Translations under genes and position numbers: made by a program
NCBI RefSeq assembly: GCF_008079445.1
Contig: NZ_VRYH01000001.1
Span: 481,196-505,195 of the forward strand
Source: Aidingimonas lacisalsi
Lineage (GTDB): Bacteria > Pseudomonadota > Gammaproteobacteria > Pseudomonadales > Halomonadaceae
Direction: 5' to 3'
DNA: 24,000 nt
The notes under the pieces: generated by a model
The model's database searches: none
Seen by the model: only the letters and a program-made list of their open reading frames with translations
Told to the model about the DNA's origin: nothing
In this document: positions 2,819-15,214 of the stretch, one piece after another
How positions within the stretch are numbered: position 1 is the stretch's first letter
Layout of the letters: each line of letters starts with the position of its first letter

Positions 2819-4402
2819 GTGATCAACCGGGTGGTCAGGAGGGAAACGGTGAGCGATGCGTTGATTCAGGCGCTGAGTCATCCAGCGTGTTACGAGCCCT
2901 CGGTGCAAGAAGTCGAATGTCTCGAGACGCCGATGGCGTGGGTATTGTTGACAGGGGATTATGCCTACAAGGTCAGCAAACCTCTGACCCTGGGTAACGT
3001 CATTGATCGCTCGACCCTGGAACAGCGTCGATCTCTTTGTGAACGAGAGGTACGACTCAGTCGACGCGTTGCACCCCATCATCGTTTAAGCGTAGTGCCT
3101 ATCTCCGGCACCCCTGAGTCGCCTCGCTTGGGCGATGACTCCGCCCCCATCGAGTATGCGGTAAAAATGTACCAGTTGAGTCCTCGCCGCTTATTCAGTG
3201 CATGGCAGGCCGGCGGGCAATTCTCTCGCGAACTGGTCGATGAGCTGATCGTTCAACTGGTTGATTTCCATGAATGTGCGGAAACGGCATTGCCTGGGTC
3301 CATGGAGACTCGTGTTGAGTCCGTTCGGGATAATATCGAGCTGGAGTTCGAGCGGATCCTGCCCCAGCTTCAAGATGCTTCTGAATTGCACCGCCTGGCC
3401 TTGTTGCGAACCTGGGCTGCGGAGGCGTTTGCTCGTTTACGAGCTGTGTTATCAATACGCTATGAGCAGGGAAGCGTACGTAAGATACCCCAGGATTTTC
3501 GCTGTCGCCATGTCGATCATGATGGCGTTGCCTGGTCCTTTGATCGGGTCGCTGCGTTGGATCGGGAGCCTTGGATCGATGTGGGTGGCGATCTGGCAGG
3601 TCTGCTGGTTGAACTGGAAGCTCGAGGCGAACGCCCGTTGGCACGACATGCTTTGAATCGTTACCTGGAACTCTCGGGAGATTATGATCTAGCCAGAGTA
3701 TTAGACTACTTCAAGGTCTATCGTGCCCTGGAGCGTGCCAGAGGTATCCTCCAGGAGGCTGGGACGCAGGGAATCGGGCCCTTGCAATACGAACGTTGTC
3801 GTGACTATCTGGCACTAGCGGAAAGTGACAGTGAATTCCGTTTCCCCTATCTGTTGATCGGCGCCGGGGTATCGGGAAGTGGGAAGAGCCGCTTCACTGG
3901 TGAGACAATTCGACGTCTAGGCGGTATTCGACTGCGTTCCGATGTCGAGCGAATGCGCTTGTTCGGCTGTGAGTCTGACGAAGCGAAAGAGACGATTGAT
4001 GCCAATCTCTATGGACCCAGAAATACGCAACGTACCTATCGACGTCTCGCTGAATTGACGGGCATTCTTCTGGAATCGGGATTACCCGTTTGTATCGATG
4101 CGACTTGTCTGAAACGCCAGCAACGTGATCTGCTTGCCTGGCAGGCAGAAGGGCGAGGCTTGCCGGTGATCATTGTCAGCTTCGAAGCGGATGAGGCCAC
4201 GCTTCGTTCCCGTATTCAAAAACGCTCGCGAGGTATTGATGATTCCTCGATGAGCGGGCTGGCGATTCTGGAGCATCAGCTTGCCGAACGTGAGCCTTTT
4301 GGTGACGACGAGCGACGTAGACTGATTCATCTTGATACGACAGCCGACAATGCTACCGATAATTTAGTGAGCTTGATTCAGACGCATATGCGACTGGACT
4401 GA
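2819..4402 (+). CDS. bifunctional aminoglycoside-phosphotransferase-like / P-loop ATP-binding (AAA-kinase) protein
   Basis: 527 aa. The N-terminal part resembles an APH/protein-kinase-like fold (WVLLTGDYAYKVSKP...TLEQRRSLCEREVRLSRRVAP). The C-terminal ~170 aa carry a Walker A motif, GAGVSGSGKSRF. GTG start at 2819. Confidence 0.75.
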   Translation: MINRVVRRETVSDALIQALSHPACYEPSVQEVECLETPMAWVLLTGDYAYKVSKPLTLGNVIDRSTLEQRRSLCEREVRLSRRVAPHHRLSVVPISGTPESPRLGDDSAPIEYAVKMYQLSPRRLFSAWQAGGQFSRELVDELIVQLVDFHECAETALPGSMETRVESVRDNIELEFERILPQLQDASELHRLALLRTWAAEAFARLRAVLSIRYEQGSVRKIPQDFRCRHVDHDGVAWSFDRVAALDREPWIDVGGDLAGLLVELEARGERPLARHALNRYLELSGDYDLARVLDYFKVYRALERARGILQEAGTQGIGPLQYERCRDYLALAESDSEFRFPYLLIGAGVSGSGKSRFTGETIRRLGGIRLRSDVERMRLFGCESDEAKETIDANLYGPRNTQRTYRRLAELTGILLESGLPVCIDATCLKRQQRDLLAWQAEGRGLPVIIVSFEADEATLRSRIQKRSRGIDDSSMSGLAILEHQLAEREPFGDDERRRLIHLDTTADNATDNLVSLIQTHMRLD

Positions 4403-4626
4403 GATACGCACCGTTCAACTCATGATGTAACAAATAAATTACGTTGTGTTTTCGGGTAACTGATTGTTCGCTAACGAGAAGACAAAATAGCAATAGTATT
4501 TCGCGAAAATTGTGTATCGTTGCTGAAACATGATTATGGTTTTTGTCCAGACCGTGCTCTTATCCTTCCTTTTTGTTTGTTCCCAATATATTGATTATTA
4601 ATGGTTTTTATCCCTTGAAGCCATTT

Positions 4627-4641
4627 TGGCATATATCATGC
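4627..4641 (+). promoter_or_regulatory. candidate sigma-54 (-24/-12) promoter of the divergent Fap-like module
   Basis: TGGCAT-ATATC-ATGC, with exact GG-N10-GC spacing (GG 4628-4629, GC 4640-4641). It has two mismatches to TGGCAC-N5-TTGC. It lies ~140 nt upstream of the ATG at 4782, in an AT-rich spacer. Confidence 0.55.
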
Positions 4642-4670
4642 CCCATCTTGTTACCATGAAAAGACACTGT

Positions 4671-4697
4671 ATATCAGTGGATGTTTGTCACTGATAT
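4671..4697 (+). other. 9-bp perfect inverted repeat in the predicted 5' leader
   Basis: ATATCAGTG (4671-4679) and CACTGATAT (4689-4697) are separated by the 9-nt loop GATGTTTGT. The repeat lies downstream of the sigma-54 promoter and upstream of the ATG at 4782. Confidence 0.4.
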
Positions 4698-4781
4698 CGG
4701 TGATGACTTCTCTGATGATGCCAGAAAGTACGATTTTCATGGGCGAAATGAATAAATCATGCATGATAAGGGAGATTCACC

Positions 4782-5924
4782 ATGAAGAAGTATGTACTAG
4801 CGGGAACAACGATGTTGGCCTTGGTCATGGCGATTTCCACTGCCAGTGCCAACCCCTTCAACAAGCAGATCGGCACGGATGATAGTGGCGATCAATCAAA
4901 TAATCTGACATCGACAGCGGCAGCAACAGGCGGAGACAGTGGTTTTTCGCTGGGTGGTAGCGGTGGTGATGGCTCCAGTGACGCTTCCGTCAAAGCCAAG
5001 AATTATCTGGATGAGGTCGACGACGACGATAACGCTGGAACACAGACCGCGGCGGGTACAGCCACCAGTGGAACAGGGACTGGCGGTGCGGGTGGTGCCG
5101 GCGGTGCTACTGGACGCGGTGGCGATGCCTGGGCCATGAGTGAATCCTACAACACCATCACCGAAGTCATTGCCTATCAGGACCTGGAATCCCAAGTCAC
5201 CGGCTCCAGGGTATATATCACGGCAGGTGATGGAGCCATGGGGGGGGCCGGCGATGATGGTGGCGATGCGTTTGCTGCCTCTGTCGGAGTCGGTGTTGGT
5301 GGTGAAGGCGGTAAAGGTGAAGGGGGTGATGGCGGTAAGTCCTACGCCAAGGCAGGCGATGGTGACGATGGCGGTGATGGTACTGGTCTCGGTCTCGGAC
5401 TAGGCGCTGGTCAGGGTGGTGACGCTGACGCCGAGAATGATGACACCTATGCCAACAACGCAACCTTGGCTGGTCTAGCGGCTGTCGTCGAGGATGATGA
5501 CAATAATGCGACTGGCGGGGCGGCCACTGGCGGTGATGCCACGGCTTCATCAGCAGCAGCAGGCGGTACCGGTGGTGCCGGTAGTGGTACTGGCAGCGGT
5601 TCCGGTACGGGGACTGCCGGTGATGGCGGTAATGGCGGTAACGCAACAGCAGGAACTGGAGGTAGCGCTAACGGTAATGGCGGCGGCGGCGGTGGTGGCA
5701 CCGGCACCAGTGGCGATGCCATGGCGGCTGCCGGCAATGGTGGCAACGGTGGTAACGGCGGCAATGGCGGCAATGCAACGTTGGCAACCGGAACTGCCAG
5801 TATGTCAGCAGGCTCCGGAACCTTCGGGGGTATCGCCAACATGAACTTGTCCACCGGTATCTATAACTCTCAGTTGGCTGCCAGCAACGTTGCGGCACAT
5901 AGCAACGTCAACATTGGCAATTGA
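4782..5924 (+). CDS. secreted Gly/Asp-rich low-complexity protein with one C-terminal Fap-type N/Q/G repeat (putative cargo)
   Basis: An RBS (GGGAGA) precedes the ATG. The Sec signal peptide is MKKYVLAGTTMLALVMAISTASA|NP. Long G/D/A/T tracts follow (GGAGGAGGATGRGGD, GGEGGKGEGGDGGK, NGGNGGNGGNGGN). The C-terminal 36 aa, SGTFGGIANMNLSTGIYNSQLAASNVAAHSNVNIGN, align in register with the FapB/FapC repeats. Confidence 0.8.
   Translation: MKKYVLAGTTMLALVMAISTASANPFNKQIGTDDSGDQSNNLTSTAAATGGDSGFSLGGSGGDGSSDASVKAKNYLDEVDDDDNAGTQTAAGTATSGTGTGGAGGAGGATGRGGDAWAMSESYNTITEVIAYQDLESQVTGSRVYITAGDGAMGGAGDDGGDAFAASVGVGVGGEGGKGEGGDGGKSYAKAGDGDDGGDGTGLGLGLGAGQGGDADAENDDTYANNATLAGLAAVVEDDDNNATGGAATGGDATASSAAAGGTGGAGSGTGSGSGTGTAGDGGNGGNATAGTGGSANGNGGGGGGGTGTSGDAMAAAGNGGNGGNGGNGGNATLATGTASMSAGSGTFGGIANMNLSTGIYNSQLAASNVAAHSNVNIGN
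5733..5774 (+). repeat. imperfect 9-nt codon repeat encoding (GNG)n
   Basis: GGCAATGGT GGCAACGGT GGTAACGGC GGCAATGGC GGCAAT is in frame with the 4782 CDS and encodes GNGGNGGNGGNGGN. Synonymous differences interrupt perfect DNA repetition. Confidence 0.8.
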
Positions 5925-5958
5925 TGAGTGTTTGATACGGCTATAAAGCGGTAATCAT

Positions 5959-5989
5959 GGGTTGGCGGCATTGTCCGCCAACCCTTATT
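5959..5989 (+). terminator. hairpin attenuator/terminator after the Gly-rich cargo gene
   Basis: GGGTTGGCGG (5959-5968), loop CATTGT, CCGCCAACCC (5975-5984) form a perfect 10-bp GC-rich stem, followed by TTATT. It starts 35 nt after the stop codon. Confidence 0.55.
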
Positions 5990-6028
5990 CGATCGATCTT
6001 TAGTGCGTCGGCACAGGAGCAGTTCATC

Positions 6029-6412
6029 ATGAAAAGATTCGACCGTTTGTCGCTGCAGCTGATTGGGATCGTCACGCTGGTGGGTCTTGCCGTTTCGCCT
6101 ATTCTTGCAGAAGAACTCCCATCTTCAACTGCCCGAGGATTCGATACTGTCGAAAAAATTGATGGCGACATTCTTGAAACCCTGAGAGGGAAAGAAGGGT
6201 TCGTTAATCTGACAAATGTTCAAAGCATTCAAAATCTTGATGCTAGCGTGAGTCATAGCAGCTTTTATGCCGATACTATACGCAGTGGTGCAATCACCAT
6301 CGAGGCTCAGGCACTAGAAAATTTTGGTGGGATCGGGTTATTCAACCTGGTTACCGGCAATAATAATGCTGTCAATAGTGGTGTTGGAGTAAGTATCTAC
6401 ATGGCTGAGTGA
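6029..6412 (+). CDS. small secreted protein ending in one Fap-type repeat (FapB/nucleator-like position)
   Basis: AGGAG lies 10 nt upstream of the ATG at 6029. The signal peptide is MKRFDRLSLQLIGIVTLVGLAVSPILA|EE. The C-terminus is AQALENFGGIGLFNLVTGNNNAVNSGVGVSI. The ORF-track start at 5957 falls inside the upstream hairpin. Confidence 0.65.
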   Translation: MKRFDRLSLQLIGIVTLVGLAVSPILAEELPSSTARGFDTVEKIDGDILETLRGKEGFVNLTNVQSIQNLDASVSHSSFYADTIRSGAITIEAQALENFGGIGLFNLVTGNNNAVNSGVGVSIYMAE

Positions 6413-6424
6413 TGAGTAATTGAT

Positions 6425-7138
6425 ATGAAGAAACTGATTACCGGAATTATGGCGGCGACGGTGCTGACTGCATCATTTCAAATGATGAACGTTTCTTCAG
6501 CCTATGCTGGTTCTGTCAACATTGCCGGTTCCTTCGGCTCGTTTCAGGTTCCCAGCAAAAGTCTGGTTGAATTGCGTTGGGATCGTGTTGTGCCTCAGCA
6601 GTATGACTATAGTTGCGGATCCGCTGCCGTCGCGACGCTACTTACCTATCATTACGATCGCGAAACTTCCGAAGCGGAAGTCTTCGATCTCATGTTCGCT
6701 AGTGGCGATAAGGAGAAAATACAACAGCATGGATTTTCAATGCTTGATATGAAGCGCTACCTGGATGCTCAGAATCTTGATTCGGACGGTTTCCGCATCG
6801 AGCTGGACGATTTTATACGCATCGGGGTCCCTGCCATCACGTTAATCAATACCGGCGGTTACAAACATTTCGTGGTGATCAAAGGCATGGATGAAGATCG
6901 TGTTCTGGTTGGCGATCCGGCAGTAGGTACTGTCGTTGTGCCTAAGGAGCACTTCAGAAAGCTGTGGGACGGTACGGTGCTTGGAGCCAGGCGCGAAATG
7001 GAACTTGCTCAGCTTCACTTCAATCACGAAGATGATTGGCGTATCCGCCCCGATTCGCCGTTAAAGCAGGGTATGAGGCGTTCCGGTGTGGGTAGCGCCT
7101 TACTCGGTCTACCCGGTGATAACGAGATGGGCAAATAA
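6425..7138 (+). CDS. periplasmic C39-family cysteine peptidase (FapD-like paralog)
   Basis: The signal peptide ends ..SSAYA|GS. The catalytic Cys context is YDYSCGSAAVATLLTY, the His context is GGYKHFVVIKG, and the Asp context is VGDPAVG. The protein is colinear with the 13656-14372 product. Confidence 0.85.
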   Translation: MKKLITGIMAATVLTASFQMMNVSSAYAGSVNIAGSFGSFQVPSKSLVELRWDRVVPQQYDYSCGSAAVATLLTYHYDRETSEAEVFDLMFASGDKEKIQQHGFSMLDMKRYLDAQNLDSDGFRIELDDFIRIGVPAITLINTGGYKHFVVIKGMDEDRVLVGDPAVGTVVVPKEHFRKLWDGTVLGARREMELAQLHFNHEDDWRIRPDSPLKQGMRRSGVGSALLGLPGDNEMGK

Positions 7139-7161
7139 TAGCCTCATTGGGGACGATGACC

Positions 7162-7845
7162 ATGAACGTTTCGACTGGTGAATGGCAAGCCGGAGTTAGA
7201 AGGGACTCGCGAATAGTAAAGCGAAGAACGATCTGGCCGCTGGCATGGCTGTGTTTTTTCATATCTTCGACAACACCGGCGGGCTTTGTCGCTGAGATGG
7301 CAATTGACCCATTCGTGCCTGAAGTTGACGCACCCATGGCTGAGCCTCTGGCATTTTCTCAGCAGCCGGTTATCGATGCGTCCGAATTGGAGGGTATGCG
7401 TGGTGGTTTCAATATCGCGGGATTGGATGTCGATTTCGGAGCCAGATTAAGAACACAAATCGATAATATTCGCTATGAAACCGTGCTTAGCATCACTCAA
7501 GCAGGCACTAGTGTGGTATCGGAAACCTTGAATGATATGGGATTTCAAGCGAATCAGCAATTGATCCGGGTTGGTCAAGGTAGCGGGAGCTCATTGGAAA
7601 ATGTATTGCCAGCCAACGTGGCATTACCGGGATTGAATGAATTCAGTGGCGTCACTCTCAATGATCCCAAGGGTTTTTCGGCAGCACTGCATAACGTCAC
7701 TCGTGATGCTATCATGAGCTCAGTCGTGAGCAACGCATCTGACCGGGATATCCGGCAGTACATGAACCTTGATGTGAAGCTCAATAATGTCAATTCGCTG
7801 CGCGATGCCCAGCAGCGTTCAGTCATCATGAACTCATTGTTCTAG
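7162..7845 (+). CDS. FapE-like secreted protein (paralog of 14426-15214)
   Basis: GGGGA lies 8 nt before the ATG at 7162; in-frame alternatives are 7147 (TTG) and 7156. There is a long n-region signal peptide (..IWPLAWLCFFISSTTPAGFVA|E). It shares the block DASELEGMRGGF..FG with the DDELAGMRGRF..FG block of 14426-15214, and sits after a C39 peptidase gene as that gene does. Confidence 0.55.
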   Translation: MNVSTGEWQAGVRRDSRIVKRRTIWPLAWLCFFISSTTPAGFVAEMAIDPFVPEVDAPMAEPLAFSQQPVIDASELEGMRGGFNIAGLDVDFGARLRTQIDNIRYETVLSITQAGTSVVSETLNDMGFQANQQLIRVGQGSGSSLENVLPANVALPGLNEFSGVTLNDPKGFSAALHNVTRDAIMSSVVSNASDRDIRQYMNLDVKLNNVNSLRDAQQRSVIMNSLF

Positions 7846-7872: not shown

Positions 7873-7901
7873 AGGGCAAGCGAGATATCGCTTGCCCTTT
7901 G
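7873..7901 (+). terminator. rho-independent terminator closing the + strand genes of the divergent module
   Basis: AGGGCAAGCGA (7873-7883), loop GATA, TCGCTTGCCCT (7888-7898) form a perfect 11-bp stem, followed by TTG. The opposite strand has no U-tract. Confidence 0.65.
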
Positions 7902-7961: not shown

Positions 7962-9035
7962 TTAAAAGACGTTCATGCCAAACGGAATCCGTAGTGTCAA
8001 CATGGTGTCGGGTGCATCATCAGTGACTCCAAGCTCCAGTCCCAGATTGACCGATGTATCCTGTGAAAGCTGATAGGACCAGCCCAGAAGCAGTGAACCG
8101 ACATTCAGGGTGCTGGATTGAGTACTAACACTATTGCCATCATCGTCAGTGAAACGGGTCTTGGTTTTATTGATGAAATCGTTCTTGTACCCAAGTGTGA
8201 ACGACGAACGTTCGTTGATGGAATAAGCCATGCCAAAACTCACACGAACGGCGTCTCCCGGGTCAACTTCACCGACGAAGAGATCACCTACCGGTTCATC
8301 GATATCGTCCTTCATATTGTAAAGATAGCCAAAATTGGCAAAGTAGACGGCCGGGTCCGAGGGAAACAGAAGCGTCAGGCTAGGTTCGATCGAGTGAAAA
8401 CCAGAGCCCGTCGCCAATTCGCGTTCGATGCCGTCCGCATCGCGGCGGATATCGAAAGGTCCCTCGCCGGTCGTCGATTTATATCTGAGATTGCCAATGA
8501 AATATGGCCAGCCATCCTGGCCTCGATTCATTTGATAGTGGGCGGCGATCTCGATATCTCCTAGCCCGTTTCCCGTCAGGCTTCTATCTGTACTGAATCC
8601 TTGTGCATCGGGAACCGTGGCATAGAGTGTGTCGTCGCGGTAGACATAAGGTACTTTCAGCTCCAGTTCCAGCCGGTCGGTGACTCCCAAGCGACCAGTT
8701 ACCGAGGCCGTCATGGTATCTCGGTCGGCGTCTTCGGCTTCGAATACGCCGATCAAAAAGGTACTCAATATTTCGATACCGCGAAATGTGAGCCTATTGA
8801 CGCTGGCATGGGAGTATTGTATTTCCGGTTCGATGACAAGACGCCCTTTGGGAGTAAGAACACCACCGATATCGGGAATGGCCTGAATTTCGGGTTGTTC
8901 TTGCTGAATTTCGGGTGCTTGTCCTACGGGTTGCTGCTCTGCAGAATTCCGGTTATTGGCATCCTGAGCCAGCACTTGACTGGCCAGAAGAAGAAGGCTC
9001 AGCCCGGTCATGCTTGTGAGGATTTTTGAGTTCAT
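7962..9035 (-). CDS. outer-membrane beta-barrel protein, FapF-like (MetA-pathway/phenol-degradation transporter-like family) paralog
   Basis: GGGGAGA RBS before the ATG at 9035. The signal peptide is MNSKILTSMTGLSLLLLASQVLA|QD. Blocks shared with the 15501-16613 product: L.IEP.I.Y, G.T[DE]RLE.EL..P..YR, GLGDI, DPA..FAN.GY.YN, NER.S, G[VL]TDDA.D. The C-terminal Phe (..GMNVF) is typical of an OMP beta-signal. Confidence 0.75.
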   Translation of the reverse strand: MNSKILTSMTGLSLLLLASQVLAQDANNRNSAEQQPVGQAPEIQQEQPEIQAIPDIGGVLTPKGRLVIEPEIQYSHASVNRLTFRGIEILSTFLIGVFEAEDADRDTMTASVTGRLGVTDRLELELKVPYVYRDDTLYATVPDAQGFSTDRSLTGNGLGDIEIAAHYQMNRGQDGWPYFIGNLRYKSTTGEGPFDIRRDADGIERELATGSGFHSIEPSLTLLFPSDPAVYFANFGYLYNMKDDIDEPVGDLFVGEVDPGDAVRVSFGMAYSINERSSFTLGYKNDFINKTKTRFTDDDGNSVSTQSSTLNVGSLLLGWSYQLSQDTSVNLGLELGVTDDAPDTMLTLRIPFGMNVF

Positions 9036-9122
9036 GTCGTTGTCTCCCCTGAGACCCCTTGTTGAATGTTGAATGATGCATGACATTATTACGTTGTCGG
9101 CCTGGCGATGGTCCTCCTATGC

Positions 9123-10550
9123 TCAATGCTTTCGGGAGCTCGAGTCCTTCAGCGGGGATAAAGGAAATACCGTCACACCGTTGAGAGTTTTTCGGTGCCA
9201 CTCGATACGATGCTTCTCCAATAATCGGTAAAGAGTGATTCTGGAAATCCCTAGTTCGCGAGCCGTAGGTACGATCTTGTAGTTATGCCGTTGCAATGCT
9301 GCCTCTACAACGGCAATTTCAGCATTATCGCGAGCGGCTTCCAGAGTGGCGGCAATGGGTTTTCCCTCAATCAATCGGCCTTCAAGGCCTAGATCCTCTG
9401 GCTCGATCAGGTGGTGTTCACACATCACCATTGCGCGCCGGATACGATTGATGAGTTCACGGACATTACCCGGCCAATCGTGCTGGGCAATCGCCTCGAG
9501 GGCGTTCTCGCTGAACCCGTGAACGCCAGCAGCTTTCTCTGGGCTAAACTCGCGAAAGAATCCTTGAGCCATGGTTTCCAGGTCTTCCCGCCGTTCGCGC
9601 AGTGGTGGAATATCCAACTGGATGACGTTGAGGCGATGATAGAGATCTTCTCGAAACCGGTGAGCCTTGATCGCGGTGAGCAGGTCAACATGAGTGGCGG
9701 AAATGATGCGTGTATCGACCATGACTTCCTGGACGCTACCAAGGCGCCGTATCCGATGGTCTTCCAGAAAGCGAAGCAGGTTGACTTGCAAGTCGCGTGG
9801 GAGATCACCGATCTCATCCAGAAACAGCGTGCCACCATCGGCACTTTCAAGTCGTCCGATACGGCGACAGTGCGCATCAGTGAATGCGCCTTTCTCATGT
9901 CCAAAAAGCTCAGCTTGAATGAGCTGGGCCGGTAAAGCGCCACAATTGATGGTGATGAAAGGTTTGTCGGCTCTGGCTGACATGGCGTGGATGGTACGAG
10001 CGACCAGTTCTTTGCCCGTACCGGATTCACCGATGATCATCACTGGTGCATGAATGATTGCCACTTTATGGATACTTTGCAGAACTCGTCTCATGCTGGG
10101 AGCAGAGCCGTAAAAGGGGGGGGCGGCATGCTGAAGGTAGTGAAGTACTCGCGTAGATGATGCTGATCTGGCAGTACGTTTCATCGATGCTGCATGGTTA
10201 AGAAGAACACAAAGGGCCTTTCCATTGCCAGGAAGTATATGGTAAGCATAAAAAAGTGTTTTTATTATCAATCTATTATTTTCATTTCTTAGATAATCAT
10301 TGTCTATTAAGGCAATCCATTCTATGCAGCTAGCATCTATCAATTCCTCAATGTCTCTGTATCCTGATTCACACAAAGATCCCATATCGATGATACCAAT
10401 ATCGAAATGATTGGCTATCAATCGGTCCGATGGCATAGTGATACGAGGATAGTGACTGACCTCAAAGAGCTTCAGTGCCGTATCGACAAGGATGAGACGG
10501 TTGGCCTCAATACGATTCCCAACATAAAGTAATCTCTTCAATGCATGCAT
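9123..10550 (-). CDS. sigma-54-dependent enhancer-binding protein (VpsR-like architecture), variant GAFTDA loop
   Basis: Walker [15 protein letters not shown] (9873-9890), Walker [10 protein letters not shown], and a C-terminal Fis-type HTH (ELGISRITLYRLLEKH). The N-terminal ~120 aa are receiver-like and lack the N-terminal acidic pair. Clear paralog of 16673-18037 (shared KRLL[YF]VG, EW[IV]AL[IV]D, LFYAYH.LP). Confidence 0.85.
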   Translation of the reverse strand: MHALKRLLYVGNRIEANRLILVDTALKLFEVSHYPRITMPSDRLIANHFDIGIIDMGSLCESGYRDIEELIDASCIEWIALIDNDYLRNENNRLIIKTLFYAYHILPGNGKALCVLLNHAASMKRTARSASSTRVLHYLQHAAPPFYGSAPSMRRVLQSIHKVAIIHAPVMIIGESGTGKELVARTIHAMSARADKPFITINCGALPAQLIQAELFGHEKGAFTDAHCRRIGRLESADGGTLFLDEIGDLPRDLQVNLLRFLEDHRIRRLGSVQEVMVDTRIISATHVDLLTAIKAHRFREDLYHRLNVIQLDIPPLRERREDLETMAQGFFREFSPEKAAGVHGFSENALEAIAQHDWPGNVRELINRIRRAMVMCEHHLIEPEDLGLEGRLIEGKPIAATLEAARDNAEIAVVEAALQRHNYKIVPTARELGISRITLYRLLEKHRIEWHRKTLNGVTVFPLSPLKDSSSRKH

Positions 10551-11291: not shown

Positions 11292-11307
11292 TGGCATGGC
11301 AATTGCT
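11292..11307 (+). promoter_or_regulatory. sigma-54 (-24/-12) promoter of the fap operon
   Basis: TGGCAT-GGCAA-TTGCT has one mismatch to TGGCAC-N5-TTGCW, with exact GG-N10-GC spacing (GG 11293-11294, GC 11305-11306). It lies ~35 nt upstream of the RBS-supported ATG at 11341. Confidence 0.7.
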
Positions 11308-11340
11308 CAGTGTTATGTGACGACACTGAGGATAGAGATC

Positions 11341-11844
11341 ATGAACGGCTTTACACACTCCACATCGGTTTTACCGCTCAGGCCAATCGCAACGCGCTGC
11401 CAGTATATCGCGACTGCATTGATCCTGGCGTGGGGACCGGCTGTCAGCTGGGCAGGGGAGTTGCAGGGAGATAACGACACCATAGCCGTTGCCTACACCA
11501 CGGTCTCGCATCAGTCATCGTCATATAGCAATAACAACCACCATGGTTTGGCCGATCATGTCGCTTTCGAAAGTGGCAATGACTTCGGGGGTAACGGCGG
11601 AGAAAGCTTGCCCGGCACATTCAGGTCACTGGAGATGAACACAACCATTGATAGTGACACCTTGAGCCAGGTGCGCGGCCGTTACACCCCGTCTTCCGAG
11701 CTCGAAAAAGGCACGGCTGACGGCGTCATTCTTTGGGATGAAGGCCATGTCGGCAAAGGTGGTGGTTCGAGCAAGGGATCCAATCACTCCATGGGTCAGG
11801 GAAATATCCAGAACAACTCCATTACGACCCAGAGTAAAAGGTGA
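11341..11844 (+). CDS. small secreted, largely low-complexity protein in the FapA position
   Basis: GAGGA lies 8 nt before the ATG at 11341; the ORF-track ATG at 11296 sits inside the sigma-54 promoter. The signal peptide is ..YIATALILAWGPAVSWA|GE. The mature part is S/N/G-rich. The assignment rests on gene order only. Its stop overlaps the next start (GTGA). Confidence 0.45.
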   Translation: MNGFTHSTSVLPLRPIATRCQYIATALILAWGPAVSWAGELQGDNDTIAVAYTTVSHQSSSYSNNNHHGLADHVAFESGNDFGGNGGESLPGTFRSLEMNTTIDSDTLSQVRGRYTPSSELEKGTADGVILWDEGHVGKGGGSSKGSNHSMGQGNIQNNSITTQSKR

Positions 11845-12527
11845 GCGTCATGGCTGGAAACACAATCTTTGGAAACGAAATATCAAACAAAACTGGCCGT
11901 TTGCGGAGAGTGTTACTGGCAATGTCACCGCTGGTTTTCATGACGTTCGTAATGAATAACGCATCAGGAGATGACGGGGTCTTCAGGCATCTACCGCAGG
12001 CGAATAGCAGTGTCATCAGTGGTGAAGCGTTGAGTGGAGTACGGGGTGTAGTTACCACCAATAGTGCAGCGGGAACCAACAATCTTCAGAGTAATTCGGG
12101 AGCGATTTCCATCGGTGATACCGCTTCCGTGAGTAACCATATCATTCAGCAATCCACACTGGACAAAGGCTCCGTTCCTGGCCGAGACAACGTCTCGATC
12201 GAGGGTCGAGCATTCAGCCATGCCAAAGGCTGGATTTCGACCAATCAGGCGGCGGGGCAAGCGAATGTGCAGGGCAATGCAGTCAGCATGGCTCTGGGCA
12301 TCAGGGGCAGTGCACTGAGCGAGAGCAGTATGGGTCAGGTGCTGTCCGATCAGCAGGGACTGACGGCCGATCTGGTTAGTTCCGATTCCTCGAAGCGTAA
12401 GGTCACGATCGACAAGACAGCCTTCTCGGGGGCGGCAGGAATTATCCAGACGAACCAGTCAGCCGGAAACGGCAATACCACCAGTAACAGCTTCAGTCTC
12501 CGTGTGGGGCCTGGGGGCGGTGAGTAG
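11841..12527 (+). CDS. fapB: FapB-like amyloid subunit/nucleator with three Fap-type repeats
   Basis: Signal peptide ..RRVLLAMSPLVFMTFVMNNASG|DD. It has three ~34-aa imperfect repeats (see the repeat feature) and ends GPGGGE, like the FapC-like protein (GTGGGSE). Start is GTG 11841 (coupled) or ATG 11850 (AGGTGA RBS). Confidence 0.7.
   Translation: MSVMAGNTIFGNEISNKTGRLRRVLLAMSPLVFMTFVMNNASGDDGVFRHLPQANSSVISGEALSGVRGVVTTNSAAGTNNLQSNSGAISIGDTASVSNHIIQQSTLDKGSVPGRDNVSIEGRAFSHAKGWISTNQAAGQANVQGNAVSMALGIRGSALSESSMGQVLSDQQGLTADLVSSDSSKRKVTIDKTAFSGAAGIIQTNQSAGNGNTTSNSFSLRVGPGGGE
12015..12509 (+). repeat. three imperfect Fap-type protein repeats in the FapB-like CDS
   Basis: R1 12015-12116 ISGEALSGVRGVVTTNSAAGTNNLQSNSGAISIG. 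R2 12198-12299 IEGRAFSHAKGWISTNQAAGQANVQGNAVSMALG. R3 12408-12509 IDKTAFSGAAGIIQTNQSAGNGNTTSNSFSLRVG. Confidence 0.8.
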
Positions 12528-12576
12528 TCTGCCGGAATAAACAACGTTGAACCAAGGTTCATTCAGGAGAAAGATC

Positions 12577-13578
12577 ATGAAAACATTGACGAAAACTCCG
12601 CTGGCACTGGCTATCGCTACCTTGATGATGGCGCCCTATGCGATGGCGGATGGGTATAACGGTGGTTTCGATACCGATAGTGAAATCGACTCTGAGTTCA
12701 GTAATGAAGTCGAAGTCGAAATCGAGCATGAAGCGGAAACCGATAAGAAGATCAAGGTATGGGGCGGCGCCCTGATACTGGATCCCAACTACGCGGGTGC
12801 CACGGTCGATAGCAAGCAATTGTCGGAAGACAATTTCGTGCTCAACGACCTGGTGGAAAACGATGCGCGAGTAGGCGGTGATGCCGGTCGAAATGCCAGC
12901 GGCAATATCGGCATCAACAGTGCGGCCGGCGACAACAACCAACAGGCCAATGATGCGGCCTTGGCGGCATCCGACGCGAATACGGTATTCGCCCAGTCGG
13001 CCGCATTCTCGGTACAGTCCTCTGACGACAACACGGTGGTCAACAAGGGTACCGATAACGATGCCGGCGCAGGTGGCAATGCGCTGCGCGGCGCCACAGG
13101 CAATATCGGTCTCAACAGTGCCGCCGGGGTCGGTAACGCCCAGCAGAACAGCTTGTCGGCGTCCGTCAACACCAGCAATGGATCAGCCGATGCCACATCG
13201 GCCGGCGTGCAATCGACCAGCGATAACACCAGCTTCAATGGACCCGGGGAAATCGAGACCACGGAAACCTCTCAATATAATGGCGTAGCAGCCATTGCGG
13301 GAGCGTCTGCCGAAGCTGGTGCAGGTGCAAGCGTTGGTTATGGACTGAAAGTCGGTGCCGGTGCAGAAGCCAGCGCTGGGGCGCTTGCGGCGGCTGTCTC
13401 CGGTAGTGAGACCGTCACCACCACGGTCTCTCGGATGCAGACCAACGATGCCAAGCTGAACGGTAACGCGCTCCGCGATGCTTCGGGCAATATCGGGGTC
13501 AACGTGGCTGCCGGCAACAACAACATGCAGCGTAACTCGCTCTCCATTGCCGCCGGAACGGGTGGTGGTTCTGAGTGA
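12577..13578 (+). CDS. fapC: FapC-like major functional-amyloid subunit
   Basis: AGGAGA RBS 6 nt before the ATG at 12577. The signal peptide is MKTLTKTPLALAIATLMMAPYAMA|DG. It has three N/Q/G/A-rich repeats separated by linkers of unequal length, and is the third gene of a fapABCDEF-ordered cluster. Confidence 0.75.
   Translation: MKTLTKTPLALAIATLMMAPYAMADGYNGGFDTDSEIDSEFSNEVEVEIEHEAETDKKIKVWGGALILDPNYAGATVDSKQLSEDNFVLNDLVENDARVGGDAGRNASGNIGINSAAGDNNQQANDAALAASDANTVFAQSAAFSVQSSDDNTVVNKGTDNDAGAGGNALRGATGNIGLNSAAGVGNAQQNSLSASVNTSNGSADATSAGVQSTSDNTSFNGPGEIETTETSQYNGVAAIAGASAEAGAGASVGYGLKVGAGAEASAGALAAAVSGSETVTTTVSRMQTNDAKLNGNALRDASGNIGVNVAAGNNNMQRNSLSIAAGTGGGSE
12874..13554 (+). repeat. three imperfect Fap-type protein repeats in the FapC-like CDS
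   Basis: R1 12874-12972 GGDAGRNASGNIGINSAAGDNNQQANDAALAAS. R2 13072-13167 GGNALRGATGNIGLNSAAGVGNAQQNSLSASV. R3 13456-13554 LNGNALRDASGNIGVNVAAGNNNMQRNSLSIAA. Confidence 0.85.
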
Positions 13579-13599
13579 CCGCGGCTAGTCGGTGATGTG

Positions 13600-13627
13600 A
13601 ACCGGCCCCGGATGGGGCCGGTTTTCC
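13600..13627 (+). terminator. intra-operon hairpin attenuator/terminator after fapC
   Basis: AACCGGCCCC (13600-13609), loop GGAT, GGGGCCGGTT (13614-13623) form a perfect 10-bp stem running into TTTT. It lies between the fapC stop (13578) and the fapD start (13656). Confidence 0.65.
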
Positions 13628-13655
13628 ACTCCAACGAGCCTGTGGGAGAGCACTG

Positions 13656-14372
13656 ATGTTTCCTTCGATAATGACTCGCATGTTGTCTGTTCTGGTTGGC
13701 GCTGGCTGCCTGCTGGCAGCGGGAATATCCGATGTCCAGGCGGCCAACGTGCGTCTGGGCAATGTGGTATCGGGTACCGTGATCAACAAGGATGTGCAGT
13801 CGATGCGCGAGCGGAAGTTCGACACCCTGGTGGAACAGGAAACGGATTTCTCCTGTGGCGCCGCCTCGCTGGCGACTCTGCTTCGTTACGCCTATGGCAA
13901 GCCGGAAGTCACTGAAAATGACGTGCTTGAGGGAATGCTTGAAATCGCCGATCCCGAGGTGGTGATGGAGCGCGGCTTTTCCCTGCTCGACCTCAAGAAT
14001 TATGTCGATAGCCTGGGATATCGTGGCCGCGGTTACGAAGTCGACACCGAGACGCTGGACGAGGTGGCGATTCCCGTTATCGTGCTGCTCGATATCGATG
14101 GCTACAAACATTTCGTGGTGATGAAGAAAGCCAGTGATGACCGGGTCTATGTCGGCGATCCGGCGTTGGGCAATCGGGTCATGGAGCGCGATGCCTTCCT
14201 CGAAGCCTGGAACAACATCATCTTTGCCGTGGTAGGCGAAGGGTTCGATACGCAGACACCTCTACTCGATCCGGATCAACCGCTGACGGCGCGACGGCTG
14301 ACCGATGTGTTTGCCCCGGTTCCCGAACAGGATCTTCTCGATTTCGGATTTCGCCATGCCGACTTCTTCTGA
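13656..14372 (+). CDS. fapD: periplasmic C39-family cysteine peptidase FapD
   Basis: Signal peptide ..LLAAGISDVQA|AN. The Cys context is TDFSCGAASLATLLRY, the His context is DGYKHFVVMKK, and the Asp context is VGDPALG. There are no ABC-transporter domains. Fourth gene of the cluster. Confidence 0.85.
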   Translation: MFPSIMTRMLSVLVGAGCLLAAGISDVQAANVRLGNVVSGTVINKDVQSMRERKFDTLVEQETDFSCGAASLATLLRYAYGKPEVTENDVLEGMLEIADPEVVMERGFSLLDLKNYVDSLGYRGRGYEVDTETLDEVAIPVIVLLDIDGYKHFVVMKKASDDRVYVGDPALGNRVMERDAFLEAWNNIIFAVVGEGFDTQTPLLDPDQPLTARRLTDVFAPVPEQDLLDFGFRHADFF

Positions 14373-14425
14373 GCGAGGTGCCTGCGGATAACGACATCAA
14401 CAAGGGCGCATTCAAGGGGGTAAAT

Positions 14426-15214
14426 ATGATCAGGCACTGGGTGGATAAGCGTTGGTACGGTGCACTGGGCGTTGTCGTTGTATTAGGGGGCGTTGGACAA
14501 CCGACAGACGGACGGGCCGCGACGACCGATGTATCGGCGTTGGCTGATTCCCGTCAACTCAGCGATGACGAATTGGCCGGTATGCGCGGCCGTTTCATCG
14601 ATGGCAAAAGTGTCATGTTCTTCGGCGTCAGTATGGAGAGTGAATTCCGCACCGCGGGAGGTGATAGTCTGAAAGCGGGCGCCAATCTCCATGCCGATCT
14701 GATCAAAGGCAAAGCCAGTTTCAAACCACATATTACAGCCACGTCTATCGATAGCGATAAGGTGACAGCGAAAGGAAATAATAATGCGAATTTGAGCTAT
14801 AACGACCTCGGCAGTGGCAATGCGCGTGGCGTCGTGCAAACCATACAGGCGGCCGGTGATGGCAACGCTGCTGCCAACGAATTCGAACTCGATATCCAGA
14901 CATTTGCGAATGCGGCGCGTGGCGGACGAGTTTCCGGCAATGGTGAAACGTCTCTGAATACCGGTACAGCCAATCTGAGAGTTCGACAGAATGGACGCGG
15001 TATGGAAGTCGGTATCGACGTGCCAGGCCAGGGCCGTATCAAGCAGCAGCTCCGATCGGGGCAGGGGTTGCATCAGTCGGTGCAACTCAACAGCGATTTG
15101 CAGCAGGTGCGAAACGTGACACGGTTACAAGTCGGGGTGAAGCAGGCACTGGGTAACGCGTCAGGCTCCCAGCTCAAGCGTGCACTGGATTCGGCACGCG
15201 GCCTACGACGTTGA
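14426..15214 (+). CDS. fapE: FapE-like secreted minor amyloid-associated protein
   Basis: AAGGGGG lies 5 nt before the ATG at 14426. The signal peptide is ..WYGALGVVVVLGGVGQPTDGRA|A. It contains one Fap-type repeat (14807-14896, LGSGNARGVVQTIQAAGDGNAAANEFELDI). Fifth gene of the cluster. Confidence 0.6.
   Translation: MIRHWVDKRWYGALGVVVVLGGVGQPTDGRAATTDVSALADSRQLSDDELAGMRGRFIDGKSVMFFGVSMESEFRTAGGDSLKAGANLHADLIKGKASFKPHITATSIDSDKVTAKGNNNANLSYNDLGSGNARGVVQTIQAAGDGNAAANEFELDIQTFANAARGGRVSGNGETSLNTGTANLRVRQNGRGMEVGIDVPGQGRIKQQLRSGQGLHQSVQLNSDLQQVRNVTRLQVGVKQALGNASGSQLKRALDSARGLRR

What the first reader, a model, noticed from the sequence alone, without database searches (positions are those of the whole stretch)
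4782..5924. 380-aa secreted Gly/Asp/Ala/Thr low-complexity protein as predicted main cargo
Seen: after a standard Sec signal peptide, almost the whole mature protein is glycine-dominated low complexity with interspersed acidic runs (DEVDDDDNAG, GDGDDGGDGTG, VVEDDDNNATGG) and GGX/GNG tracts. There is one ordered-looking island (about aa 115-148, DAWAMSESYNTITEVIAYQDLESQVTGSRVYITAGD, nt ~5124-5225) and one C-terminal N/Q/G repeat. The gene is the first and longest after the promoter and is followed by an attenuator hairpin, the arrangement expected of a major structural subunit. Inference: it may be a flexible, strongly acidic, possibly cation-binding matrix or fibre protein that uses its single Fap-type repeat for targeting or templating. 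The tracts do not follow the RTX nonapeptide periodicity.
Basis: partly seen in the sequence, partly recalled or inferred. Interest (0 to 1): 0.7.

Follow-up and report, generated by a model that had tools for sequence, protein, structure and literature searches.

The report
Glycine-rich cargo of a Fap-related secretion cassette
This gene encodes a real, conserved, secreted glycine-rich protein that is most likely the main exported fibre or matrix subunit of a so far undescribed relative of the Pseudomonas Fap amyloid-secretion system, found in salt-loving and marine bacteria.

Summary
ORF 4782-5924 encodes a 380-aa protein (X1) with a Sec signal peptide. The mature part is 28.9% Gly with net charge -32 and has no RTX nonapeptides. 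The window is from Aidingimonas lacisalsi.

X1 belongs to a conserved family: 43 species-level genome loci in Halomonadaceae, other Gammaproteobacteria and Kiloniellaceae. Three modules are conserved: signal peptide plus 'ANPxNKFG', a 39-aa island, and a roughly 48-aa C-terminus. Hypervariable Gly-rich linkers lie between them.

The neighbours are nearly constant: a small paralog X2 (42/43 loci), a periplasmic C39 peptidase (43/43), an accessory protein X4 with a FapE-like N-terminus (42/43), a FapF-like barrel (41/43) and a sigma-54 activator (31/43). A sigma-54-type promoter and a strong hairpin after the last X1-type gene are also conserved.

The X1 core is homologous to X2 (hhalign 96%, E 3e-9). 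The 'Fap-type repeat' claim is not supported: Fap-repeat profiles score X1 no better than shuffled sequence. AlphaFold gave no confident fold.

Best reading: X1 is the major substrate of an autonomous FapD/FapF-type system. It works like FapC (core modules plus disordered linkers) but is not a FapB/C family member. Fibre formation and cation binding are untested. This is a new variant of a known kind.

The parts
4627..4642 (+). Sigma-54-type promoter candidate (-24/-12 element TGGCATATATCATGCC), about 140 nt upstream of the X1 start codon
   Evidence: Pattern match. The element GGCAY-N5-NTGC is the conserved block in an alignment of upstream regions from 8 Halomonadaceae genera/species. It is present within 350 nt upstream of the first X1-type gene in 28 of 37 loci, against 7.9% of random windows. 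A sigma-54 activator gene is adjacent.
4757..4766 (+). Conserved palindromic box TCATGCATGA in the 5' untranslated region, just upstream of the ribosome-binding site; function unknown
   Evidence: Invariant TCATGCAT in the 8-sequence upstream alignment. CATGCATG lies about 25 nt before the true start in about 20 Halomonadaceae loci and in none outside the family. It is not conserved upstream of the other cassette genes; background is 2.6% of 150-nt windows.
4782..5924 (+). X1: 380-aa secreted glycine-rich acidic protein, the predicted major substrate. Signal peptide aa 1-23; linker 1 aa 24-112; island aa 113-151; linker 2 aa 152-333; C-terminal module about aa 333-380
   Evidence: ORF, composition. 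(family). (module and linker boundaries and their conservation).
5118..5234 (+). Conserved island (aa 113-151, GGDAWAMSESYNTITEVIAYQDLESQVTGSRVYITAGDG), single copy per protein
   Evidence: An island HMM finds one significant copy (E 1e-14 to 1e-27) in the full-length family members with an intact N-terminal part. It aligns to the EGFVNLTNVQSIQNLDASV segment of X2.
5778..5921 (+). Conserved C-terminal module (ATLATGTASMSAGSGTFGGIANMNLSTGIYNSQLAASNVAAHSNVNIGN), the most conserved part of the family
   Evidence: 55-94% identity across the family, while linker identity falls to 18-45% in distant members. Near-invariant G/F/G/G/I/N columns. It aligns to the C-terminal half of X2. Not significant against Fap repeats.
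5959..5984 (+). GC-rich hairpin (10-bp stem, 6-nt loop) followed by TTATT: probable partial terminator, attenuator or mRNA-stabilising stem after the major-subunit gene
   Evidence: Sequence; fold. An equivalent strong hairpin follows the last X1-type gene in 41 loci, and 88% fall below the 5th percentile of random windows.
6029..6412 (+). X2: 127-aa secreted small paralog of the X1 core, without Gly-rich linkers. After its signal peptide it carries a double-glycine-leader-like motif (IDGDILETLRGK)
   Evidence: Start fixed by the ribosome-binding site and by 100% identity to an A. lacisalsi protein. X1 core against the X2 family: hhalign probability 96.1%, E 3.2e-9, 64 collinear columns. BLASTP P0009 vs X2 E 0.003. 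Present in 42 of 43 loci.
6425..7138 (+). Periplasmic C39 cysteine peptidase, FapD-like
   Evidence: Pfam Peptidase_C39 E 1.6e-22. NCBIfam FapD 134 bits and FilB 129 bits, both below the equivalog cut-offs. Q58, C64, H148 and D164 are invariant in 53 of 53 sequences. N-terminal signal peptide read directly from the sequence. Present in 43 of 43 loci.
7147..7845 (+). X4: secreted accessory protein with a FapE-like N-terminal region and a double-glycine-type motif (VIDASELEGMRGG|F)
   Evidence: No Pfam or NCBIfam hit. Motif region against FapE: hhalign probability 82%, E 1e-5 over 33 columns, extending past the motif. Motif present in 39 of 45 X4 sequences. Present in 42 of 43 loci.
7873..7898 (+). 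Terminator-like hairpin (11-bp stem) at the end of the X1-X2-C39-X4 operon
7962..9086 (-). FapF-like outer-membrane beta-barrel; the true start is probably the internal Met at aa 18
   Evidence: NCBIfam FapF E 3.2e-46 (158 bits; cut-off 700) and FilC E 8.5e-25. Pfam Phenol_MetA_deg E 5e-6. Present in 41 of 43 loci; the two without it are cut by contig ends.
9123..10550 (-). Sigma-54-dependent transcriptional activator with a VpsR-type N-terminal domain
   Evidence: Pfam Sigma54_activat E 7.9e-67, VpsR E 4.9e-5, HTH_8. An activator of this type lies next to the cassette in 31 of 43 loci. It is absent from the Kiloniellaceae loci.

Best explanation
X1 is the major exported substrate of an autonomous six-gene cassette related to the Fap (functional amyloid of Pseudomonas) biogenesis machinery.

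**Proposed pathway.**
1. The adjacent VpsR-type activator drives the sigma-54 promoter at 4627-4642.
2. The hairpin at 5959-5984 ends or stabilises most transcripts after X1. The subunit is therefore made in excess over X2, the C39 peptidase and X4.
3. All the proteins enter the periplasm through Sec.
4. The periplasmic C39 peptidase has an intact catalytic Q/C/H/D set. It acts on the accessory proteins X2 and X4, which carry a double-glycine-leader-like motif that X1 lacks.
5. X1 is threaded unfolded through the FapF-like barrel.
6. Outside the cell, the two conserved beta-prone modules (island and C-terminus) assemble into a fibre or matrix. Assembly is probably templated by X2, which is essentially those two modules without linkers.
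7. The roughly 90-aa and 180-aa glycine-rich, acidic, almost K/R-free linkers stay disordered as a hydrated coat.

**Shown here:** the gene, the family, the module architecture, X1-X2 homology, the conserved neighbourhood, and the conserved promoter and hairpin.

**Inferred:** export through the barrel, C39 processing of X2 and X4, polymerisation, and the role of the linkers.
For: - **Family and architecture:**
- **Neighbourhood in 43 genome loci:** C39 43, X2 42, X4 42, barrel 41, activator 31. Canonical fap genes are present in only 7, so the cassette stands on its own. In Halomonadaceae it sits between hemL and LuxR-rdgB-hemN.
- **Machinery homology:** C39 and barrel hit NCBIfam FapD (4.4e-39) and FapF (3.2e-46). 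The catalytic residues are invariant.
- **X1 core is homologous to X2:** hhalign 96%, E 3e-9. This mirrors FapC (long linkers) and FapB (short).
- **Leader-like motif:** X4 39/45, X2 28/45, FapE 7/7 and FapA 7/8, but X1 0/57, FapB 0/8 and FapC 0/8. This puts X1 in the substrate class.
- **Conserved promoter and hairpin**.
- **No confident fold:** AlphaFold gives no confident monomer fold (pLDDT 42), which is compatible with an unfolded secretion substrate.
- **Fap model from the literature:** FapB, FapC and FapE cross FapF unfolded. FapD catalysis is required. The FapE N-terminus is processed (PMC5557850, PMC6173800).
Against: - There is no experimental evidence of expression, secretion or fibres.
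- The X1 modules are not detectably Fap repeats.
- X1 has only two conserved modules rather than the three repeats of FapB/FapC.
- AlphaFold did not predict a beta-solenoid for X1 or X2, although the alignments were shallow (13 and 15 sequences).
- The C39 and barrel score well below the FapD/FapF equivalog cut-offs, so mechanistic transfer from Fap is by analogy.
- One short subclade (P0006, 166 aa) has no C39 or barrel within 10 kb.
- The hairpin has only a weak U-tract, so its effect on transcription is unproven.
Confidence: 0.55

Rival explanations
1. X1 is exported by the same cassette but does not polymerise. It would be a disordered, polyanionic surface or matrix protein (a hydrogel, spacer or adhesin). 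The conserved C-terminal module would be a secretion or anchoring signal for the barrel, not a fibre core, and X2 would be a competing or priming substrate.
For: - The C-terminus is the most conserved part and lies at or near the extreme end.
- AlphaFold predicts no structure.
- Linker 2 makes up half of the protein and keeps a minimum length of about 180 aa.
- Only two conserved modules exist.
Against: - The island is as well conserved as a structural element and is shared with X2 in collinear order.
- Some paralogs carry 5-10 extra residues after the C-terminal module, so it need not be terminal.
- The major-subunit gene arrangement with a hairpin, and the tandem X1 paralogs, are typical of polymer subunits.
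Confidence: 0.27
2. X1 is a periplasmic or outer-membrane-associated component that never leaves the cell, for example a chaperone-like spacer or a plug for the barrel. The true cargo would be X2 and/or X4.
For: - X2 and X4, not X1, carry the C39-type leader motif.
- After the proposed cleavage X2 would be a compact peptide of about 75 aa.
Against: - In Fap the motif-bearing proteins are the accessory ones (FapA, FapE), and the motif-free ones (FapB, FapC) are the fibre (PMC5557850).
- X1 is first in the operon and is set off by a hairpin.
- X1 is duplicated two- or three-fold in several genomes.
- A 36-49% glycine linker is an unlikely chaperone.
Confidence: 0.1
3. X1 is a glycine-rich bacteriocin- or microcin-like toxin matured by the C39 peptidase.
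For: - Glycine-rich sequence next to a C39 peptidase.
- Glycine-rich microcins can self-assemble in biofilms (PMC13188072, listed; only its title and abstract were seen).
Against: - X1 has a Sec signal peptide and no double-glycine leader.
- The mature protein is 357 aa.
- The C39 protein is a stand-alone periplasmic enzyme, not an ABC-transporter domain.
- No ABC exporter is among the annotated cassette genes, and no candidate immunity gene was seen.
Confidence: 0.04
4. The ORF is a chance open frame in GC-rich repetitive DNA, not a gene.
For: Several long overlapping ORFs exist on both strands of 4900-5900. The exact protein is not in the protein collection under an NCBI accession.
Against: The frame, signal peptide, island and C-terminus are conserved in 43 genomes across two proteobacterial classes, with constant neighbours, a promoter and a hairpin.
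Confidence: 0.01

Closest known systems
FapC/FapB, subunits of the Fap functional amyloid system (fapABCDEF) of Pseudomonas and other Proteobacteria
   Same: - Sec signal peptide.
- Short conserved beta-prone modules rich in G/N/S/A, separated by long variable disordered linkers.
- A shorter paralog encoded next door (X2, compare FapB).
- Encoded with a periplasmic C39 peptidase (FapD-like), a FapE-like accessory protein and a FapF-like barrel.
- Lacks the leader-like motif that the accessory proteins carry.
- A genuine fap operon lies 5 kb away in the same window.
   Different: - The X1/X2 modules are not Fap repeats by any profile test.
- Two different modules instead of three similar repeats.
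- Linkers are 36-49% glycine.
- Gene order differs: subunit first, barrel and activator divergent. No separate FapA-like gene lies within the cassette.
- The C39 and barrel are distant paralogs of FapD and FapF: 33-42% and 29-34% identity by tblastn.
Fil fimbriae of Acinetobacter (FilA-F; NCBIfam pilus_FilB and pilus_FilC)
   Same: A second known fibre system whose C39 peptidase and barrel belong to the same superfamily. The cassette's C39 scores almost as well on FilB (129 bits) as on FapD (134 bits), and the barrel also hits FilC. FilA is a surface fibre subunit (PMC3498257 and PMC11784438).
   Different: No Fil-family model matched X1, X2 or X4 at E <= 10. The barrel is clearly closer to FapF than to FilC (158 vs 88 bits). 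I could not compare directly with a FilA sequence.
Colocalised fapD/fapF homolog pairs outside Fap operons (Rouse et al. 2018, PMC6173800)
   Same: That paper notes fapD and fapF homologs within 5 kb of each other in five additional phyla, and infers a conserved FapD-FapF partnership. The cassette here is one such pair.
   Different: In the passages I read, the substrates of those pairs were not described. Here a specific substrate family (X1/X2), an accessory protein (X4), a regulator and cis elements are defined.
Curli CsgA/CsgB
   Same: Logic of a major subunit plus a small nucleator paralog; secretion of unfolded subunits through a dedicated outer-membrane channel; G/N/S/Q-rich modules.
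   Different: No Pfam curlin-repeat hit. There are no CsgG/E/F homologs, and the transporter is a different kind.

Membership tests
FapB/FapC amyloid subunit family | Match to the family profile (NCBIfam NF058557 FapB, NF058558 FapC) | tested here: not met
   No hit for X1, X2 or P0001 even at E <= 10. The window's own FapB and FapC score 9.9e-27 and 4.3e-44.
FapB/FapC amyloid subunit family | Three imperfect Fap repeats (GN-x-G-N-x2-AG-x2-NQQ-x-N type) | tested here: not met
   - hhalign of the X1 C-terminus or core against FapB/FapC alignments gives probability 0.3-0.6%.
- An HMM of 39 Fap repeats scores X1 C-termini at median 0.6 bits, against -2.5 for shuffles (shuffle maximum 16.2, X1 maximum 13.0). 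X2 scores no better than shuffles.
- Only the spacing G-x4-N-x3-G-x2-N is shared.
FapB/FapC amyloid subunit family | Forms SDS- and formic-acid-resistant, ThT-binding fibrils | not testable with these tools
   Needs purified protein or cells.
FapD/FapF-type secretion cassette (Fap-related machinery) | Stand-alone periplasmic C39 peptidase with an intact catalytic site | tested here: met
   Pfam PF03412 E 1.6e-22. N-terminal signal peptide. Q58/C64/H148/D164 invariant in 53 of 53 sequences. NCBIfam FapD 134 bits is below the equivalog cut-off of 330, so it is a paralog, not FapD itself.
FapD/FapF-type secretion cassette (Fap-related machinery) | FapF-type outer-membrane barrel encoded next to the peptidase | tested here: met
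   NCBIfam FapF E 3.2e-46 over profile positions 96-418 of 420 (158 bits; cut-off 700). Adjacent in 41 of 43 loci.
FapD/FapF-type secretion cassette (Fap-related machinery) | FapE-like accessory subunit | tested here: inconclusive
   X4 gives no NCBIfam FapE hit at E <= 10. Its N-terminal region does align to FapE: hhalign 82%, E 1e-5, 33 columns. However, the segments were selected by the shared motif, so this test is partly circular.
RTX calcium-binding proteins | Tandem GGxGxDxUx nonapeptides and a type I secretion neighbourhood | tested here: not met
   No nonapeptide in X1. No ABC or MFP genes in the cassette.
Double-glycine-leader bacteriocins/microcins | N-terminal LSxxELxxIxGG leader on the cargo and a C39-ABC exporter | tested here: not met
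   X1 family 0 of 57 with the motif. X1 has a Sec signal peptide instead. The C39 protein has no transporter domains.
Fil fimbriae (Acinetobacter) | Match to the Fil subunit and accessory family models | tested here: not met
   Only the C39 and the barrel hit FilB and FilC, both below cut-off. No Fil-family model appeared among hits for X1, X2 or X4 at E <= 10. I did not confirm which other Fil models the library holds.
Curli (CsgA/CsgB) | Curlin repeat (Pfam) | tested here: not met
   No Pfam family for X1 or X2 at E <= 0.01.

The most novel reading that the evidence does not exclude
X1 and X2 would define a new class of bacterial extracellular fibre subunit. A two-module beta core is split by a polyglycine-rich acidic linker of about 200 residues. 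A third lineage of FapD/FapF-type secretion machines, alongside Fap and Fil, assembles it. The double-glycine-leader-like motif (phi-D/E-x2-E-L-x2-phi-R-G-G/R) is shared by X2, X4, FapE and FapA. It would be the recognition or cleavage site of the periplasmic C39 peptidases, so it would also identify the FapD substrate site that the Fap papers read here (2017-2018) describe as undetermined.
Probability: 0.35. Interest if true: 0.75.

Novelty: new variant of a known kind. Interest (0 to 1): 0.6.

Why it matters
- **Unknown cargo identified.** FapD/FapF-type pairs are known to occur outside Fap operons, but their cargo has not been described. This locus supplies a defined, conserved cargo family (X1/X2), an accessory protein, a regulator and cis elements. 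A whole unannotated system becomes directly testable.
- **Built-in comparison.** The organism carries a canonical fap operon 5 kb away, which allows a direct comparison of two related secretion systems with unrelated substrates.
- **A candidate FapD site.** The leader-like motif shared by X2, X4, FapE and FapA gives a concrete hypothesis for what the periplasmic C39 peptidase recognises. The Fap literature read here describes that as unresolved (PMC6173800, PMC5557850).
- **Material interest.** A fibre or matrix protein that is about 40% glycine over 180-570 residues, from halophiles, may also interest people working on biofilm matrices and protein materials.

Tried and rejected
- **Whole-protein word-index search with X1.** It gave one partial hit, because glycine-rich words saturated the candidate list. 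Re-querying with conserved blocks only recovered the family.
- **Exhaustive HMMER search with alignment A2.** It found only 39 representatives and missed the long Halomonadaceae forms. Family size is better judged from the genome scan.
- **Structure prediction.** X2 gave pLDDT 47.7 and X1 gave 42.4. Neither model is usable, so I ran no fold searches.
- **PDB sequence searches.** The X1 and X2 profiles found nothing.
- **Rfam.** Nothing at gathering threshold on the whole window. Only one chance-level hit in 4400-6100.
- **Plasmid collection.** tblastn with P0009 and with X2 found nothing.
- **Fap-repeat hypothesis.** Tested three ways and rejected.
- **RTX and microcin readings.** Rejected on motif and neighbourhood.
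- **The TCATGCATGA box as a cassette-wide operator.** Rejected, because it is conserved only upstream of X1.
- **Literature.** Eight full-text searches found no paper describing this family or cassette. The library does not cover most subscription journals, so absence there is not proof of novelty.
Full report
**Observation.** The ORF at 4782-5924 (+) is present exactly as described.
- It starts with a typical Sec signal peptide (MKKYVLAGTTMLALVMAISTASA|NP).
- The 357-aa mature part is 28.9% Gly, 16% Ala, 9.5% Thr and 9% Asp, with only 2.3% Lys+Arg. Calculated pI is 4.05 and net charge about -32.
No RTX nonapeptide (GGxGxDxUx) occurs.
- Short period-9 DNA repeats underlie the GGN tracts.
- A 10-bp GC-rich hairpin sits at 5959-5984, 35 nt after the stop codon.
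- The next gene starts at 6029, not 5957. The longer ORF in the mechanical list begins just before the hairpin and runs through it. The 127-aa product from 6029 is 100% identical to a protein of Aidingimonas lacisalsi, which identifies the source organism.

**Map of the window.** Two related gene sets lie side by side.
- **Locus A** is X1 (4782-5924), X2 (6029-6412), a C39 peptidase (6425-7138), X4 (7147-7845) and a terminator (7873-7898). On the other strand are a FapF-like barrel (7962-9086) and a sigma-54 activator with a VpsR-type N-domain (9123-10550).
- **Locus B** is a canonical fap operon: fapA-like 11296-11844, fapB 11841-12527, fapC 12547-13578, fapD 13656-14372, fapE 14378-15214 and fapF 15501-16613. 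It has its own sigma-54 activator (16673-18037) and a LuxR-type regulator (18112-18807).
- The locus B proteins hit the NCBIfam Fap models strongly: FapC 4e-44, FapD 8e-85, FapE 6e-29, FapF 1e-108.
- In locus A only the peptidase (FapD 4e-39, FilB 2.5e-37) and the barrel (FapF 3e-46, FilC 8.5e-25) hit anything, both far below the equivalog cut-offs.
- X1, X2 and X4 match no Pfam or NCBIfam model, even at E <= 10.

**X1 belongs to a real family.**
- A search with the whole protein failed because glycine-rich words saturated the candidate list. A query made of the conserved blocks alone found 20 relatives.
- A scan of one genome per species found 43 loci. They come from:
  - Halomonadaceae: Aidingimonas, Billgrantia, Litchfieldella, Franzmannia, Halomonas.
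  - Other Gammaproteobacteria: Motiliproteus, Nitrococcus, Thiohalobacter.
  - Alphaproteobacteria: Kiloniellaceae (Pelagibius, Denitrobaculum).
  - Several metagenome-assembled genomes.
- Full-length members are 325-901 aa, 27-38% Gly, 5-12% Asp+Glu and mostly 1-3% Lys+Arg (up to 6%).
- Three parts are conserved:
  - the signal peptide with an 'ANPxNKFG' start of the mature protein;
  - a single 39-aa island, found by HMM at E 1e-14 to 1e-27, one copy per protein;
  - a roughly 48-aa C-terminal module, TGxxxxxxGAGTFGGIANxNxSxGxYNxxLxxxxVAAHSxVxIGN.
- Against distant members the island keeps 38-62% identity and the C-terminus 55-79%, while the linkers fall to 18-45%.
- Linker 2 is 182-570 aa (median 209), 36-49% Gly and almost free of Lys/Arg.
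- Several genomes carry two or three X1-type genes in tandem.

**The neighbourhood is conserved.** tblastn with the window's proteins gave the following counts among the 43 loci.

| Neighbour | Loci with it (of 43) |
|---|---|
| C39 peptidase | 43 |
| X2 | 42 |
| X4 | 42 |
| FapF-like barrel | 41 (the two exceptions are cut by contig ends) |
| Sigma-54 activator | 31 (absent in Kiloniellaceae) |
| Canonical fap genes | 7 |

- The cassette is therefore autonomous, not an appendage of Fap.
- In Halomonadaceae it occupies a fixed chromosomal site between hemL and LuxR-rdgB-hemN.
- The same order is seen on metagenomic contigs L005 and L007.
- The one exception is a short (about 166 aa) metagenomic subclade, P0006, which sits alone among transporter genes with no C39 or barrel within 10 kb. 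Its N-terminus resembles the Kiloniellaceae proteins. Whether those genomes carry the cassette elsewhere could not be checked.

**Cis elements.**
- The -24/-12 element TGGCAT-N5-ATGC at 4627-4642 is the conserved block in an alignment of upstream regions that otherwise diverge.
- A GGCAY-N5-NTGC element lies within 350 nt upstream of the first X1-type gene in 28 of 37 loci, against 7.9% of random windows.
- A perfect match (TGGCATGGCAATTGCT, 11292-11307) precedes the fap operon.
- After the last X1-type gene, the best 44-nt hairpin has a median of -28.8 kcal/mol, against -16.4 for random windows. 88% of loci fall below the random 5th percentile.
- The stem sequences differ between loci while the position is kept. 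This argues for function as a partial terminator or a stabilising 3' stem that raises the subunit's share of expression.
- The U-tract is weak, so read-through to X2-X4 is plausible but unproven.

**What X1 is related to.**
- The linker-free core of X1 (island plus C-terminus) aligns collinearly with the X2 family: hhalign probability 96.1%, E 3.2e-9, 64 columns. Each module also aligns separately (island 89.5%, C-terminus 71%). BLASTP of the short homolog P0009 against X2 gives the same alignment (E 0.003).
- X2 is thus a small paralog made of the same two modules without glycine-rich linkers. That is the same relationship as FapB to FapC.
  - hhalign against FapB/FapC gives probability below 1%, although it finds the expected register (GIANMNLSTGIYNSQ over GVVTTNSAAGTNNLQ);
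  - a Fap-repeat HMM does not separate X1 or X2 from shuffled sequence;
  - the NCBIfam FapB/FapC models are silent.
- The resemblance is one of composition and spacing only.

**Accessory proteins and the peptidase.**
- The C39 peptidase keeps Q58, C64, H148 and D164 in all 53 sequences compared.
- Behind their signal peptides, X4, X2, FapE and the FapA-like protein share a motif:
  - X4: VIDASELEGMRGG|F
  - X2: IDGDILETLRGK
  - FapE: LSDDELAGMRGR
  - FapA-like: IDSDTLSQVRGRY
- Counting back from the residue after the Gly, hydrophobic residues fall at -4, -7 and -12, an acidic residue usually at -8, and Gly at -2.
- From general knowledge of C39 substrates, this matches the spacing of the classical double-glycine leader LSxxELxxIxGG.
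- The motif occurs in 39/45 X4, 28/45 X2 (close variants in most others), 7/7 FapE and 7/8 FapA sequences. It occurs in 0/57 X1, 0/8 FapB and 0/8 FapC.
- X4 and FapE also align beyond the motif (82%, E 1e-5, 33 columns). This test is partly circular because the segments were picked by the motif.
- Published work shows three things. FapD catalysis is needed for secretion. The first 70 or so residues of FapE are missing in cells. The FapD substrate was undetermined, and the authors saw no canonical C39 sequence in Fap proteins (PMC5557850, PMC6173800).
- The motif is therefore a lead for that question. I did not find it described in the library searched.

**Mechanism proposed.** By analogy with Fap (PMC5557850):
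1. The activator and sigma-54 switch on the operon.
2. The hairpin biases expression toward X1.
3. All the proteins cross the inner membrane via Sec.
4. The C39 peptidase processes X2 and/or X4 at the leader-like motif. Cleavage would expose the island-like module of X2 almost exactly at its start.
5. X1 passes unfolded through the barrel.
6. Outside the cell the island and C-terminal modules assemble, with X2 as template or nucleator. The glycine-rich acidic linkers form a disordered hydrated coat.

Only the parts list, the homologies and the conservation are shown. Export, cleavage, polymerisation and the linker role are inferred. AlphaFold gave no confident model for X1 (pLDDT 42.4) or X2 (47.7) with shallow alignments. 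That fits an unfolded secretion substrate but proves nothing, and it made fold searches pointless.

**Rivals.**
- **Non-polymerising disordered surface protein.** The C-terminus would be a secretion or anchoring signal. This remains a serious alternative (about 0.27).
- **Non-exported periplasmic role** (about 0.1). It fits poorly with the gene position, the tandem duplication and the Fap analogy.
- **Microcin-like toxin** (0.04). The Sec signal, the protein's size and the absence of an ABC exporter make this unlikely.
- **Artefact** (0.01). Excluded by conservation.
- **Cation binding.** The idea is untested, and the acidity is not distinctive because FapC in the same window has the same pI.

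**Novelty.**
- The machinery is of a known kind. Rouse et al. 2018 already noted colocalised fapD/fapF homologs outside Fap. Acinetobacter Fil fimbriae are a second named system of this superfamily according to the NCBIfam model names.
- What appears undescribed is this cassette's substrate family, its accessory protein and its cis elements.
  - The one named X2 homologs are annotated 'hypothetical protein' or 'Uncharacterized protein', and most X1 homologs carry no name.
  - No curated model matches, and no PDB relative exists.
  - Eight literature searches found nothing. The library lacks most subscription journals.
- I rate it a new variant of a known kind, with interest 0.6.

Noticed in passing
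window 7147-7845 (X4, aa about 72-85), 6029-6412 (X2, aa about 41-53), 14378-15214 (FapE, aa about 60-72), 11296-11844 (FapA-like, aa about 117-130): A motif with the spacing of the classical double-glycine C39 leader (hydrophobic at -4/-7/-12, acidic at -8, Gly at -2) follows the Sec signal peptide. It reads VIDASELEGMRGG in X4, IDGDILETLRGK in X2, LSDDELAGMRGR in FapE and IDSDTLSQVRGRY in the FapA-like protein. It is conserved in these four families across loci and absent from X1, FapB and FapC. It is a candidate recognition or cleavage site for the periplasmic C39 peptidases, whose substrate the 2017-2018 Fap papers call undetermined.
   Followed up: partly
window 11292-18807: A complete canonical fap operon (fapA-like, B, C, D, E, F) lies 5 kb downstream of the finding. 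It has a perfect sigma-54 -24/-12 match (TGGCATGGCAATTGCT, 11292-11307), its own sigma-54 activator (16673-18037, minus strand) and a LuxR-type regulator (18112-18807, minus strand). The promoter overlaps the start of the mechanical ORF 11296, so the real fapA-like start is probably further downstream.
   Followed up: partly
window 4757-4766: A perfect 10-bp palindrome, TCATGCATGA, lies in the X1 5' untranslated region just before the ribosome-binding site. CATGCATG is conserved about 25 nt before the start codon in about 20 Halomonadaceae loci while the surroundings diverge. It is absent outside that family and is not conserved upstream of the other cassette genes. Its function is unknown. 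Its ATG triplets cause mechanical ORF callers to extend X1 homologs by 6-16 spurious residues.
   Followed up: partly
window 5118-5650 (X1 aa 113, 160, 212, 250, 285): A mini-motif GG(D/N)AxA recurs through the protein: GGDAWAMS at the island, then GGDAFAAS, GGDADAEN, GGDATASS and GGNATAGT. The family mean is 2.2 per protein, against 0.16 in shuffled sequences. The linkers may be degenerate copies of the start of the island.
   Followed up: partly
L034, L035, L037, L038, L040, L042, L044-L046, L048, L050; L021/L022: Many genomes carry two or three tandem X1-type genes. The upstream copies often end with a short extra tail after the IGN terminus, for example ...IGNVAAAGGQ or ...IGSGTASP. Motiliproteus has a single 877-901-aa version with a linker of about 570 aa.
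   Followed up: no
L002-L004 (gene at L002 10001-10501): A short (166 aa) X1-type subclade from metagenomes stands alone between a GntR regulator gene and ABC-transporter genes, with no C39 or barrel within 10 kb. I saw no obvious sigma-54 element upstream by eye. It is not known whether the cassette lies elsewhere in those genomes.
   Followed up: partly
L036 (CAVYIJ010000007.1): A contig binned as 'uncultured Halobacteria archaeon' carries the full cassette, including an outer-membrane barrel and a sigma-54 activator. These are bacterial features, so the contig is probably mis-binned.
   Followed up: no
window 4782-5924: The exact X1 sequence was not found in the exact-sequence look-up of the protein collection. 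Its neighbours C39 and X2 are there under NCBI accessions for A. lacisalsi. X1 itself was found only on a Logan contig. The gene may be called with a different start, or not called at all, in the public annotation.
   Followed up: no
window 7962-9086 (minus strand): The barrel ORF as listed starts 17 codons upstream of a better start (MNSKILTSMTGLSLLLLASQVLA...). Both this barrel and the window's FapF (370 aa) match only profile positions from about 84-96 onward of the 420-position FapF model. They therefore seem to lack most of the N-terminal periplasmic region described for Pseudomonas FapF.
   Followed up: no
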